A DNA stretch of 64,000 nt, taken from Eledone cirrhosa. Taxonomy: Eukaryota. The DNA lies in contig OZ024747.1 of assembly GCA_964016885.1 (NCBI GenBank), forward strand, positions 51,646,001-51,710,000, written 5' to 3'. The notes beneath the pieces were generated by a model that saw only the letters and a program-made list of their open reading frames with translations, ran no database searches and was not told the DNA's origin. Every line of letters starts with the position of its first letter. Within the stretch, counting starts at the first letter, position 1. This document shows, in pieces, positions 8,448-47,815 of the stretch. The translations under genes were made by a program, and so were the position numbers.

Positions 8448-10227
8448 ATAAATTGAAACAAAATGAAAACGAAATTTCATTTCTCACTCTTAGTATGGCA
8501 CTTACTTAAATGTAAGTATGCATGTATACGTACATACATATATGTATACAGACGTACAGTAGCATGCACATATATATATATATATACATATATACATACA
8601 TATGCATACAGGTACACATACATATATGCACGTATCAGTTTAGCGGCGCTTATTATAACGTCGCTTTGTTCGTTTGTAAACAAACTGAACAGCCTGAATT
8701 TATGCCATACGGTGTTAAGGCAACCACGTCACCTTTTTGTTCAACACTGACACAGGAACGATGTACTAGTTTCAAGCTTGTTAGCTATCATCAGCACCGT
8801 TTACCCATCTGCCAGATAGTTGAACGTTCGAAAGTATATACTTTCTTTATGAAAATTAACGGCTGAGCAGCCTAATTTGCATATTGAGTGAGTTAAATCG
8901 GTCAGGCATACCGAAAACGATAAATTGAAACAAAATGAAAACGAAATTTCATTTCTCACTCTTAGTATGGCACTTACTTAAATGTAAGTATGCATGTATA
9001 CGTACATACATATATGTATACAGACGTACAGTAGCATGCACATATATATATATATATACATATATACATACATATGCATACAGGTACACATACATATATG
9101 CACGTATCAGTTTAGCGGCGCTTATTATAACGTCGCTTTGTTCGTTTGTAAACAAACTGAACAGCCTGAATTTATGCCATACGGTGTTAAGGCAACCACG
9201 TCACCTTTTTGTTCAACACTGACACAGGAACGATGTACTAGTTTCAAGCTTGTTAGCTATCATCAGCACCGTTTACCCATCTGCCAGATAGTTGAACGTT
9301 CGAAAGTATATACTTTCCTTATGAAAATTAACGGCTGAGCAGCCTAATTTGCATATTGAGTGAGTTAAATCGGTCAGGCATACCGAAAACGATAAATTGA
9401 AACAAAATGAAAACGAAATTTCATTTCTCACTCTTAGTATGGCACTTACTTAAATGTAAGTATGCATGTATACGTACATACATATATGTATACAGACGTA
9501 CAGTAGCATGCACATATATATATATATATACATATATACATACATATGCATACAGGTACACATACATATATGCACGTATCAGTTTAGCGGCGCTTATTAT
9601 AACGTCGCTTTGTTCGTTTGTAAACAAACTGAACAGCCTGAATTTATGCCATACGGTGTTAAGGCAACCACGTCACCTTTTTGTTCAACACTGACACAGG
9701 AACGATGTACTAGTTTCAAGCTTGTTAGCTATCATCAGCACCGTTTACCCATCTGCCAGATAGTTGAACGTTCGAAAGTATATACTTTCCTTATGAAAAT
9801 TAACGGCTGAGCAGCCTAATTTGCATATTGAGTGAGTTAAATCGGTCAGGCATACCGAAAACGATAAATTGAAACAAAATGAAAACGAAATTTCATTTCT
9901 CACTCTTAGTATGGCACTTACTTAAATGTAAGTATGCATGTATACGTACATACATATATGTATACAGACGTACAGTAGCATGCACATATATATATATATA
10001 TACATATATACATACATATGCATACAGGTACACATACATATATGCACGTATCAGTTTAGCGGCGCTTATTATAACGTCGCTTTGTTCGTTTGTAAACAAA
10101 CTGAACAGCCTGAATTTATGCCATACGGTGTTAAGGCAACCACGTCACCTTTTTGTTCAACACTGACACAGGAACGATGTACTAGTTTCAAGCTTGTTAG
10201 CTATCATCAGCACCGTTTACCCATCTG
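8448..10227 (-). mobile_element. Left (inverted) arm of 472-bp hammerhead retrozyme-like tandem array, ~3.8 units
   Basis: 472-bp periodicity in the ORF track and sequence; hammerhead cores on - at 8757-8801, 9229-9273, 9701-9745 and 10173-10217. Confidence 0.9.
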
Positions 10228-10359
10228 TATATGTATGTACGTATACATGCATACTTACATTTAAGTAAGTGCCATACTAAGAGTGAGAAATGAAATTTCG
10301 TTTTCATTTTGTTTCAATTTATCGTTTTCGGTATGCCTGACCGATTTAACTCACTCAAT

Positions 10360-10408
10360 ATGCAAATTAGGCTGCTCAGCCGTTAATTTTCATAAGGAAA
10401 GTATATAC
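10360..10408 (+). promoter_or_regulatory. Putative snRNA/U6-type upstream promoter (octamer + TATA) in each array unit
   Basis: ATGCAAAT at 10360-10367 and TATATA at 10402-10407, about 40 nt upstream of the hammerhead; conserved in diverged copies; PSE not verifiable by eye. Confidence 0.5.
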
Positions 10409-10440
10409 TTTCGAACGTTCAACTATCTGGCAGATGGGTA

Positions 10441-10485
10441 AACGGTGCTGATGATAGCTAACAAGCTTGAAACTAGTACATCGTT
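10441..10485 (+). ncRNA. Type I hammerhead ribozyme (representative of 16 identical copies)
   Basis: aacggtg-CTGATGA-t-agct-aaca-agct-t-GAAAC-ta-GTA-catcgtt: intact core, stem I aacggtg/catcgtt extendable to 10417-10503, 4-bp stem II, minimal palindromic stem III (ACTAGT), predicted cleavage after 10478. Confidence 0.9.
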
Positions 10486-44104: not shown

Positions 44105-44300
44105 AGACCCCAAAGAGAGTCCGGAAGGGAGCAAACCTTGACAGTTGGAATCTGGAACATCACAACCAATACAGGTAAGGAGCAGGAACTATTGGAGGAG
44201 GCTAGATGTTACCGCCTAGATATTGTCGGTGTTTCCTCAACAATGTTTTGTAGCTCTGATATTGTAGATTTAGATTGTGGTGGGAAACTCAACTATTCAC
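44105..44300 (+). pseudogene. RTE-like LINE AP-endonuclease N-terminal fragment
   Basis: LTVGIWNITTNTGKEQELLEEARCYRLDIVGVSST. Confidence 0.7.
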
Positions 44301-47300
44301 AAAAATTCTCGGCAGAGATTTTCTGCTAGGGAAAGGGTCACAGGCGGCGGATTGCGGTACGGCTACCATATATGATAGATAGTTCCGATATAAGCGGACA
44401 ACTGTCGGACGAATAAGCAACACCGGACCAACATCGGTAAACTAATAGGGAAGATGAAGGAATGGGTGAAACTTGTAGCTCCCAACAAAGCTCTCACAAG
44501 CCAGTGACATAGCTACGATGAAGCGGGAAAATGCTGCGGGTTTGATAAAATAGCAGATTGGTGACTGGTGCGAATAAGACCACGGAAACTGAAATTGCAA
44601 TATGATGAGGAAAACTGATGATTTATTTTCGCCAAATATTCTAAATATAATAATTATTTATTTCGAAATCAATAATAACAATAATATTGATAATAACAAT
44701 AATAAGAATAGCTACAACAACAATATCAAAAGTGATGGTAATTATGGGTATGTCTATATAATGATATTTATAGCAGAATCACCGAGGGACGCCATCAATT
44801 TTTGTCATTAAGATATTGGTTTCCATCTTTGGTTCTATTACTGTAGTGAAATACATAATGGTGGACTATGGCAACAATTACAACTACAACAACAAAAACA
44901 ACTACTAGTACAACATCATTAATATCTACAACATCAAATACTACATATTTTACAATAACTTGTGAGAAAACTACATCTTTTATAACGAAAATTACTACTA
45001 CTACTACTACTACTACTACTACTACTACTACTACTACTACTACTACTACTACTACTACTACTACCACTACTACTATAACTACTACTACTACTACTGCTGC
45101 CGCTGCTATTATTATAACTCCCTCTACAACAATATACCAGCACTACAACAACAACATATGTTACAACAACAATAGCAAGAACCTCATGATCAGTGATAAC
45201 AACAAATACAAGAACTACAACTGAAACTGTCAGCAATAACAACTATAACAACTATAACAACAAAATCTACAAGAAACACAACTACTACTACTACTACTAC
45301 TACTACTACTACTACTACTACTACTACTACTACTACTACTACTACTACTACTATTACTGCAGTAACTACAACAACTGCAACACCAGGCTGCAAATCTACA
45401 GGACTACAACAGCTACAATAACAACGACTGCAACAACGAAAACAACTCCAACAATGACCACAACAGTTACAACAACTGAAACAACTACAACAAAAGACAT
45501 TATCAGCAGCGGCAAAACCTAACATTTTCATCAACACCATTATATTTATCGTCATTATGATTATTTTTATCATCATTATTATCATCATCATCGTCGTCAT
45601 CATCATCATCATCATCATCATCGTCGTCGTCTTTAACACCATCATCATCATCATCATCATCATCATCATTATCACCCCCAACAACAAGGTCAACAACATA
45701 ACCTTCTCCTCTACCTGCTCCTCTGTTCCACCCTCATCATCAGTGTTAAAACATTAGTAATAACAATGAGAATAAGACTGAAAATGTAATTTAGAAGACG
45801 CCCCCGCCAAAGACAAATTGTTCACTCCAAGCACCATAAATACATCATATAGACACACATAGCAACACACACAGGCACATATATAAACATACTTACACAC
45901 GGACGTGCTTATAAATATATACATATATATACATATATATATATATATATATATATATATATATATATATATATATATATATATATATATATATATATAT
46001 TGGCATACGGTTGGAAAAATACTTGTATCCTTATATGTATATTTTTACACGTAGGAACACATACTTTATTATATATATATATATATATATATATATATAT
46101 ATATATATATACATATATATATATATATATATTTATTTATTTATATATACACATATATTAAAAAAGATATATATATATATATATATATATATATATATAT
46201 ATATATATATATATATATATATATACATACATACATACATATACACATACATACATATATACATATATATTCATATATATGGGAATATTTCTCACATATA
46301 CATACTTGCCCATATATTGTCCATATATACACATTTATCGAGGTCCTACTGGGTTTCAAACAATGGTAAAACACACAAGCTTTGCTATAACTGTATAACA
46401 GGAAGTCGCCATCAACGCCACTTTCCGATCAAAACAGACAGAAATTAGTGTTTGTTTTTGGCTGCCATTTTGGTTCTTATTATTTTTACTGTCCCGAATA
46501 TTTCGTCTTCTCGGCTGCCATTTTCTCTTGTATTTTCTCAAACTACGCACCACACAAAGCCACTCTACTGACCGCTCTTTCTCAATTCTTCTTCTTCTTC
46601 TTCTTCTTCTTCTTCTTCTTCTTCTTCTTCTTCTTCTTCTTCTTCTTCTTCTTCTTCTTCTTCTTCTTCTTCTTCTTCTTCTTCTTCTTCTTCTTCTTCT
46701 TCTTCTTCTTCTTCTTCTTCTCTATCATTTCATAGTTCTACTCCACCGCCTTCTCTAACTCAATCACATTTCCTCTGTTCTTTATATTGACAAACGAAGA
46801 AGCAAACCAAACAGGTTGTTAGTTATACATATGTTTACATAAGCCAATATGTATATTGTTCTTACCATCATGTCGAGGAATACACATTTACACACACACC
46901 TCTTACACTTTCTTTCTCTCTCTCTCTCTCTCTCTCTCTCTCTCTCTATATATATATATATATATATATATATATATATATATATATATATATATATATA
47001 TATCTGTCTGTCTATCTATATATCAGTTTACCTATTTGTCTATATATATATATCTATATATATATATGTTTGTGTGTGTGTGTGTGTGTGTACGTGTGTC
47101 TGTGCATGTGTGTGTGTGTGTTAGGAATGACTTTTCTGATTATATCCCTCTTTAATGAGCAAATGTTTCTAGACTGTTTGCTAACATTTGATCATTAATG
47201 AGTAAAATTATATTCACCAGAAATGTCATTGTTATCAATTTCCAAATATATTTTACTACGGCATTAGCTCTACTTTTACTATGTACATACATATATATTC

Positions 47301-47442
47301 ATATATGTATCTCTGTGTGTCTGTATACACACACACACACACACACACACATATATATATATATATATATATATATATATATATATATATATATATATAT
47401 ATATATATATATATATATATATATATATATTTATATATATAT

Positions 47443-47815
47443 GTAAGTATGTATACGTACATACATATATGTATACAGACGTACAGTAGTATGTATATAT
47501 ATATATATATACATATATGCACACACATATATATGTACGTATGGATTCACCGAACATTTATTATAATGCTCGGTGTGTTTGTAAACAAACATCCCGTATT
47601 AAGCCGTAGTGTCTAGCAACCATCGTACTCGTTTGTTCAACACTGAAAAAGGATCGCTGTACTAGTTTCAAGCTTATTAGCTATCATCATCAACGTATAC
47701 CTTCCTGCCAGATGATTGAACGTCTGAAAGTATATACTTTCCTTATGCATATTAACGACTGAGCAGCCTAATTTGCAAATCGAGTGGGTTAATCGGCCGG
47801 GTGCACCGAAAACAT
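47443..47815 (-). mobile_element. Diverged monomeric copy of the retrozyme family
   Basis: Hammerhead on - with ATGATGA (core C mutated)...GAAACTAGTA; aagtatatact and atttgca motifs retained. Confidence 0.85.

What the first reader, a model, noticed from the sequence alone, without database searches (positions are those of the whole stretch)
8448..47815. Four retrozyme-family loci share head-to-head inversion and two recurrent staggered ends, a Penelope-type integration signature
Seen: three loci (8448-15913, 18467-18835, 26490-27168) are internally inverted so that both outer ends are element 3' ends. One end falls at the T-tract (8448, 18467, 27168). The other falls ~60-70 nt earlier at ...CATACTTA (15913, 26490, 47443; slightly earlier at 18835). 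All sit in (TA)n. Established: PLE insertions often have an inverted partial copy and a one-sided tail. Inference: the family is mobilised in trans by PLE RT/GIY-YIG, and several PLE remnants lie in this window.
Basis: partly seen in the sequence, partly recalled or inferred. Interest (0 to 1): 0.75.

Follow-up and report, generated by a model that had tools for sequence, protein, structure and literature searches.

The report
Ribozyme repeat with paired staggered ends
These four spots are copies of an abundant half-kilobase non-coding repeat with a predicted self-cutting RNA motif; its mirror-image insertions end, almost without exception, at one long and one short fixed site, so it likely borrows the copying enzyme of a Penelope-type jumping gene: a known kind of element with an unusually clean record of how it likely inserts.

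Summary
The observation mostly holds. The loci belong to a 472-nt type I hammerhead retrozyme family (16,662 exact core matches). Copies end in (TA)n at two sites about 63 nt apart: 2,552 long (A) and 3,297 short (B) junctions genome-wide, against 6 at a control site. Head-to-head insertions carry one end of each kind: 58 of 58 curated loci, 28 of 29 pairs in a curation-free test, and 37 of 38 loci picked by one end. The two arms share rare variants, so they likely come from one template. Fold-back copying does not fit the arm lengths. Neptune- and Hydra-type Penelope-like elements here show the same two-end pattern, but none examined shares sequence with the unit, so the partner is unidentified. 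Inverted copy, one-sided tail and (TA)n targeting are published for Penelope-like elements, and a retrozyme-PLE link has been proposed in print. The strict one-long-one-short rule in a protein-less element was not found in my searches. This scan noted the same pattern before on other DNA of this genome. Corrections: the end at 18835 is not in (TA)n; 42117-42415 is a sister family.

The parts
8450..10227 (-). Locus 1, left arm: 3.8 tandem 472-nt units, 3' end at site A (unit 314-316), 5' end at unit 425
10228..15913 (+). Locus 1, right arm: 12.1 units, 5' end at unit 222, 3' end at site B (unit 251); only 2 differences among all units of both arms
10426..10496 (+). Type I hammerhead motif (core starts 10448, predicted cut after 10478) with extended helix I and a short palindromic helix III; one per unit
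   Evidence: Rfam HH9 only weakly, E 0.15; helix I variants keep pairing
10730..10792 (+). The tail between site B and site A (first internal copy): loop and 3' strand of hairpin 1, then hairpin 2 and a T-rich stretch
10830..10837 (+). Octamer motif ATGCAAAT (one per unit), upstream of a palindromic TATA-like stretch and the ribozyme; promoter role is inferred only
   Evidence: 392 of 414 anchored copies carry it
18467..18589 (-). Locus 2, left arm, site A end
18595..18835 (+). Locus 2, right arm with hammerhead at 18619; stops about 20 nt before site B against another element
26490..27122 (-). Locus 3, left arm (about 1.4 units of an older subfamily), site B end
27125..27168 (+). Locus 3, right arm: the tail alone, site A end
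47442..47813 (-). Locus 4, single arm, site B end, 5' end at unit 318
47814..47820 (+). Possible 7-nt inverted arm (unit 311-317, site A) abutting locus 4; tentative
8334..8449 (.). (TA)n target tract left of locus 1
29127..30408 (-). Neptune-type PLE remnant (end of RT, GIY-YIG, own hammerhead at 29315, short end); context, not homologous to the unit
42117..42415 (-). Fragment of a sister retrozyme family with the same layout, ending at its long end

Best explanation
The four loci are insertions of a protein-less 472-nt hammerhead repeat whose copies end at two fixed sites 63 nt apart, one of each in a mirror-image insertion, and which is likely copied in trans by the RT/GIY-YIG protein of a Penelope-like element. 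Shown: the two ends, their pairing, the head-to-head layout, the (TA)n target, scattered inner junctions, and shared rare variants in both arms. Inferred: the protein, probably as a dimer, binds the two-hairpin tail region, nicks both strands of a TA tract, and primes one cDNA at the downstream site A and the other at the upstream site B, on the same RNA or on two copies from one source. Both cDNAs stop at unrelated points and are joined through a few bases of microhomology. Multi-unit arms would come from a multimeric or circular RNA; which of the two is not settled.
For: Bimodal ends genome-wide, 2,552 and 3,297 against 6 control. Pairing: 58 of 58 curated loci A+B; 28 of 29 outward-facing neighbour pairs from two independent pattern lists, where independence predicts 49%; 37 of 38 resolved loci among 60 picked by one clean end. 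Either end can lie on either side (A left in 21 of 58). Inner junctions: 45 of 90 overlap by 1-5 nt, 7 blunt, 25 with added bases, 13 longer overlaps. 8 of 90 A arms stop at unit 250-262 (2.5 expected; window chosen after seeing the data), all 8 being the tail alone, as if halted at the B primer. Arms of one locus differ by a median 1.9% against 5.1% between loci, closer in 68 of 74. A variant with 17 copies genome-wide is in both arms of all 4 multi-copy loci that carry it, on different subfamily backgrounds; a second with 40 copies is in both arms of 3 loci. One insertion outside TA has a 9-bp target duplication (L037). A Neptune-type family here has two ends about 57 nt apart, short+long in 4 of 5 inverted copies; a Hydra-type family has ends about 88 nt apart. 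A sister retrozyme family ends at the equivalent places, one of each, in the 2 inverted loci seen (by eye). In vitro a Poseidon PLE cuts and extends both strands and starts at two internal sites that bound the genomic tail (PMC11167929).
Against: No autonomous element sharing the hammerhead or tail was found: two Neptune-type and one Hydra-type family are unrelated in sequence, and none of 30 loci (of 449 matches) with the tail behind a changed upstream stretch had a PLE frame joined to it. One B+B locus exists (L269; its arms are 5.0% apart) and one long+long Neptune copy (L123). In vitro the two strands showed no difference in start site (PMC11167929), so the asymmetry is not reproduced there. 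B arms are not clearly enriched for stopping at site A (3 of 90, 1.7 expected). Shared variants can also arise by gene conversion: in L081 six shared variants lie in one 125-nt tract. One arm (L191) mixes units of different subfamilies. 17 head-to-head loci with one end interrupted, cut or elsewhere were left out of the 58; 22 of the 60 one-end loci were unresolved. The samples are nearly all from contig C1 and overlap in part.
Confidence: 0.63

Rival explanations
1. Same PLE machinery, but the short end is made at the DNA level: both strands are primed at one site and the endonuclease trims one arm at hairpin 1 while resolving the intermediate.
For: Craig 2021 ascribes the one-sided tail to endonuclease-mediated resolution (PMC8557442). 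Site B lies at the top of a conserved 6-bp hairpin. It predicts strict A+B pairing too.
Against: Frangieh 2024 maps both tail boundaries to RT start sites in vitro. The excess of tail-only A arms stopping at B (8 of 90) is easier with a primer sitting at B.
Confidence: 0.17
2. Fold-back or self-priming: one cDNA starts at A, folds back at a palindrome and is copied, the copy stopping 63 nt short (the self-priming idea of Arkhipova 2013).
For: Explains clonal arms and A+B pairing at once; a few junctions sit on palindromes with both arms starting at the same unit position (L029, L011, L079, L291). Proposed for rotifer PLEs (PMC3846280).
Against: The copy cannot exceed its template, yet the B arm is longer than the A arm minus the tail in 31 of 58 loci, and tail-only A arms of 46-66 nt sit beside B arms of 233-1460 nt. 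The two arms start at unrelated unit positions in most loci.
Confidence: 0.06
3. A LINE (RTE or L1/Tx1 type, both present in the window) mobilises the repeat as a SINE-like passenger with twin priming as known for L1.
For: RTE and L1/Tx1 remnants are common and RTE ends also lie in TA tracts; site A follows a T-rich stretch; tail-only arms have twin-priming geometry.
Against: L1 twin priming uses variable internal sites (recalled), here the internal site is fixed; the unit has no LINE-like 3' repeat; the pattern is that of the PLEs of this genome.
Confidence: 0.07
4. The short ends are later deletions between the TA-like stretch inside the unit and the flanking TA tract, or the inverted arms are DNA-transposon TIRs or assembly artefacts.
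For: The stretch before B is TA-like; some arms do end inside the unit's internal TA tract.
Against: Later deletion would leave many A+A loci and none was seen in any sample; the youngest loci already show A+B; arms have unequal lengths and different outer ends, unlike TIRs; thousands of dispersed junctions.
Confidence: 0.03

Closest known systems
Metazoan non-LTR retrozymes (Cervera and de la Pena 2020, PMC7229834; Li, Clavereau and Pollet 2026, bioRxiv 10.64898/2026.07.22.740005)
   Same: Non-coding tandem units each with a type I hammerhead, low GC, dispersed monomers to multimers, co-existing with PLEs; PLE mobilisation proposed.
   Different: The passages read describe no inverted insertions or fixed end pairs; unit of 472 nt is longer than the 170-400 nt RNAs of the 2020 paper but within the 51-972 bp range of the 2026 preprint; homology to a pLTR, found for 21 PLE hits in Xenopus, was not found here; RNA and cleavage untested.
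Endonuclease-bearing Penelope-like elements, Neptune and Hydra clades (Craig et al. 2021, PMC8557442; Arkhipova et al. 2013, PMC3846280)
   Same: 5' truncation, partial tandems, head-to-head inverted copy, tail at one end, (TA)n targets, hammerhead, 8-10 bp target duplications where visible (9 bp here in one case).
   Different: No reading frame; tail about 63 nt rather than 30-40; the tail rule is near absolute here, whereas print says 'often' or 'optionally'.
Poseidon element of Anolis in vitro (Frangieh et al. 2024, PMC11167929)
   Same: Two internal start sites bounding the tail, start in a stem-loop, both strands cut and extended, predicted dimer; no sign that the ribozyme cut defines insertion ends.
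   Different: No strand difference in start site was seen in vitro; here each insertion uses one site per side. Ends here fall where 1-3 bases match the TA target.
Non-autonomous Chlamys elements such as MRC1 (Craig 2021, passage)
   Same: Non-autonomous PLE derivatives with multicopy head-to-tail insertions.
   Different: Those share 3' sequence with an autonomous family; none was found here.
L1 twin priming
   Same: Two primers on opposite target strands, head-to-head product, microhomology at the junction.
   Different: Second site fixed, no poly(A), arms usually cover overlapping unit positions.

Membership tests
Non-LTR retrozyme | Type I hammerhead in every tandem unit | tested here: met
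   Core motif in all 16 full units of locus 1 and once in each other locus (core damaged at 47690); helix I variants keep pairing; Rfam match weak only
Non-LTR retrozyme | Short non-coding unit in dispersed tandem copies, no LTR/PBS/PPT | tested here: met
   Units 426-573 nt; longest stop-free frame 116 codons of low-complexity sequence; 16,662 cores; PBS/PPT not searched for
Non-LTR retrozyme | Self-cleavage and linear or circular monomer RNA | not testable with these tools
   Needs transcription assay or RNA reads
PLE-mobilised element | Head-to-head inverted 5'-truncated copy | tested here: met
   58 curated loci; no tail-to-tail neighbour pair among 172 ends
PLE-mobilised element | [quoted passage not shown] | tested here: met
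   one B+B exception
PLE-mobilised element | (TA)n target bias; target duplication of about 8-10 bp where visible | tested here: met
   Microsatellite run after A in 55 of 58 and TA after B in 54 of 58; one 9-bp duplication; other non-TA ends showed none
PLE-mobilised element | Sequence shared with the pLTR of an autonomous PLE | tested here: inconclusive
   Not found in three families or 30 of 449 selected loci; other PLE families of the genome were not surveyed
Autonomous PLE | RT plus GIY-YIG reading frame | tested here: not met
   No such frame in the unit
DNA transposon or MITE | Fixed terminal inverted repeats and fixed internal structure | tested here: not met
   Outer ends differ by 63 nt, arm lengths and junctions vary
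Helitron | Fixed 5' end, 3' CTRR end after a hairpin, no inversion | tested here: not met
   5' ends scattered over the unit, frequent inversion; end motifs judged by eye, definition recalled

The most novel reading that the evidence does not exclude
PLE integration is an asymmetric two-primer reaction: one protein dimer holds a single two-hairpin RNA element and dedicates one active site to the site downstream of it and the other to the hairpin loop upstream, so every two-armed insertion has one long and one short end copied from one RNA, possibly a monomeric circle. These retrozymes would be minimal, structure-defined substrates that share no sequence with the enzyme's own element.
Probability: 0.4. 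Interest if true: 0.72.

Novelty: new member of a known kind. Interest (0 to 1): 0.52.

Why it matters
How animal retrozymes move and why Penelope-like insertions carry an inverted copy with a one-sided tail are open questions; Craig 2021 names the second as needing an in vitro system. This family gives thousands of protein-less insertions with base-level end points, turns 'often at one end' into a near-absolute pairing rule, and names a 63-nt RNA stretch to test with the genome's own PLE proteins. It is genomic support for a link already proposed in print, not a new kind of system.

Tried and rejected
DNA search of the genome with part of the unit returned nothing because common words are skipped; patterns were used instead. 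Rfam at gathering level finds no hammerhead. Partner search: Neptune-type families 1 and 2 and a Hydra-type family share no sequence with the unit; 30 of 449 loci with the tail behind a changed upstream stretch were variants or inversion junctions. Junctions joining the repeat directly to Hydra (L055, L065) or Neptune (L195) frames were rejected as evidence, because junctions to RTE and other DNA are as common and mixed junctions can be long+long (L106). The hammerhead cut is not a stop for cDNA: 6 of 116 5' ends within 12 nt, 5.9 expected. In-register copying of a heterogeneous array in L081 was rejected in favour of a conversion tract. A trimeric circle for L109 fits only part of its units. 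A source array for the L103 variant was not found among the three single-copy loci. A formal alignment and fold of the sister family against this family was not done; that comparison is by eye. Look-ups of earlier findings by sequence and by words gave nothing.
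Full report
What is there. The stretch 8450-15913 is a tandem array of a 472-nt unit in two arms that meet head to head at 10227/10228. Each unit carries a type I hammerhead motif on the plus strand of the right arm, with an extended helix I and a short palindromic helix III; Rfam sees it only weakly (E 0.15), but helix I variants among 464 copies keep pairing. Such helices III are described as needing a dimeric fold (PMC4209133, passages). I number the unit from the predicted cut (window 10479 = 1). 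Older relatives lie at 18467-18835, 26490-27168 and 47442-47813. Corrections: the end near 18835 abuts another palindromic element, not (TA)n; locus 4 has at most a 7-nt inverted arm; the fragment at 42117-42415 belongs to a sister family.

Genome-wide ends. An exact 25-nt core matches 16,662 times in G000, a subfamily-specific core 10,393 times. Copies run into (TA)n at two places: site A (unit 314-316; 2,552 matches) and site B (unit 251-257; 3,297 matches). A control position gives 6. These patterns cover only some subfamilies. B lies at the top of a conserved hairpin, A just after a second hairpin (folds are only moderately better than shuffles, z -1.8 to -2.7). Both ends come in a few registers, each where 1-3 bases of the element match the TA target.

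The pairing rule. Sample 1: loci around listed core matches on contig C1 (96 merged loci), 180 kb beside the window, 7 loci chosen for a variant and 13 arbitrary 10-kb stretches. I curated by hand 58 head-to-head insertions with both ends resolved: all 58 are A+B; 54 end at B proper, 4 end 6-20 nt earlier. I left out 17 head-to-head loci in which one end was interrupted, cut or lay elsewhere; one of them, L053, looked B+B by alignment but ends in the unit's internal TA tract. Sample 2, free of curation: the 100 B ends and 72 A ends listed for C1 up to 99.2 Mb give 29 outward-facing neighbour pairs within 6 kb: 28 A+B, no A+A, one B+B 5.8 kb apart that is two separate insertions; independence predicts 49% A+B. 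Sample 3: 60 loci picked by one clean end: of 28 picked by A, 15 have B opposite, none A, 13 unresolved; of 32 picked by B, 22 have A, one has B (L269), 9 unresolved. Eight of these loci are also in sample 2, and samples 1 and 2 overlap.

Junctions and template. In 90 junctions, 45 overlap by 1-5 nt, 7 are blunt, 25 have added bases and 13 overlap more. 5' ends are spread over the unit and do not favour the ribozyme cut (6 of 116, 5.9 expected). Eight A arms are the tail alone and stop at unit 250-262 (2.5 expected; window chosen after the fact); B arms stopping at A are not clearly enriched. The B arm is the longer in 28 of 58 loci, which excludes fold-back as the general route. Arms of one locus are closer (median 1.9%) than arms of different loci (5.1%) in 68 of 74 cases; equal age alone could do part of this. 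Stronger: a variant with 17 copies in the genome is in both arms of all four multi-copy loci that have it, on different subfamily backgrounds, and a second variant with 40 copies is in both arms of three loci. Against: shared variants in L081 form one short tract, as from gene conversion; L191 mixes subfamilies within an arm, and L109 shares a three-unit pattern between arms that does not run through the array. A common source for both arms is likely; circle versus linear multimer is open.

The partner. The window holds the 3' part of a Neptune-type PLE (GIY-YIG match E 0.006; linker and CCHH-type residues read by eye against the description in PMC8557442). Its family is abundant (27,662 first-look candidates), young (98% median identity), ends in TA at two sites about 57 nt apart, and is short+long in 4 of 5 inverted copies. 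A Hydra-type family (CxCX5C linker) has ends about 88 nt apart. Neither, nor a second Neptune family, shares sequence with the unit. A search for the tail behind other upstream DNA found no PLE frame in 30 of 449 loci. One copy inside a Hydra frame has a 9-bp target duplication. A sister retrozyme family with its own sequence has the same order of parts (octamer, hammerhead, two-hairpin tail) and ends at the equivalent sites, one of each, in L050 and L277 (by eye), which suggests that structure sets the ends.

Mechanism. Most likely a PLE protein acts in trans, nicks both strands of a TA tract and primes one cDNA at A and the other at B; the two truncated cDNAs are joined by microhomology. Shown: ends, pairing, layout, target, junction statistics, shared variants. 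Inferred: the enzyme, priming rather than trimming at B, one complex, the RNA form, ribozyme activity and the promoter role of the octamer (a newt hammerhead satellite uses an snRNA-type promoter according to a passage in PMC2220036; the original paper was not read and the octamer link is recalled).

What is in print. Read: bioRxiv 10.64898/2026.07.22.740005, parts 1-3 of 5, abstract to discussion; PMC11167929, parts 1-2 of 4, the main text; PMC8557442, passages and section 11; passages of PMC7229834, PMC4209133, PMC3846280, PMC8969392, PMC2220036. No supplements were read; those of the 2026 preprint and of Craig 2021 could hold related families. L1 twin priming is recalled. The inverted copy, one-sided tail, (TA)n bias and two RT start sites are published for autonomous PLEs, and retrozymes have been proposed as their non-autonomous derivatives. 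A strict long-plus-short rule with clonal arms in a retrozyme was not found by searches, which cover open-licence papers only. Earlier notes of this scan report the same pattern in other windows of this genome; I did not determine the organism.

Verdict. A real feature, a new member of a known kind, with good genomic support for PLE-type mobilisation and a sharp, testable end rule; partner unknown. Interest 0.52.

Noticed in passing
window 15937-16130 and 20553-20764: Another non-coding element inserted head to head with a short end on one side and a tail of about 90 nt on the other; also nested in L004, L088, L247.
   Followed up: partly
window 7018-7141, 25579-25722, 35916-36173, 7962, 24394: Hammerhead-bearing end fragments of other families, several resembling the Hydra-type pLTR hammerhead; 35916-36173 is itself inverted.
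   Followed up: partly
window 27209-28065: RTE-type LINE remnant that is itself inverted (RT part on plus strand, C-terminal part on minus strand); locus 3 sits in the TA tract at its 3' end.
   Followed up: no
   Followed up: partly
unit 340-405 (window 10818-10883): Octamer kept in 392 of 414 copies and in the sister family, followed by a palindromic TATA-like stretch shortly before the ribozyme: possible snRNA-type internal promoter.
   Followed up: partly
unit 315-323 versus Neptune families (L112-L140, L041, L093): The bases just after site A resemble those just after the short end of both Neptune families; seen by eye only, a lead for the partner.
   Followed up: no
L191:3828-5046: One arm made of tandem units from different subfamilies, suggesting template switching between different RNAs.
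   Followed up: no
L069:2640-3830: A 302-nt tandem hammerhead repeat of another family, with an inverted arm, nested in the internal TA tract of a unit; nested insertions there are common (L004, L090, L105, L192).
   Followed up: no
window 18837-19176, 19768-20004, 28184-28799: Further palindromic insertions centred on TA tracts.
   Followed up: no
window 3678-3911, 19213-19403, 24828-24950, 53583-53782, 60214-60414, 62875-63309: A dispersed SINE-like family of about 200 nt.
   Followed up: no
window 62792-62864 (-): tRNA-Phe-like gene (Rfam tRNA, 57.5 bits).
   Followed up: no
window 1172-2395 (+): L1/Tx1-type LINE remnant with a weak zf-RVT match.
   Followed up: no
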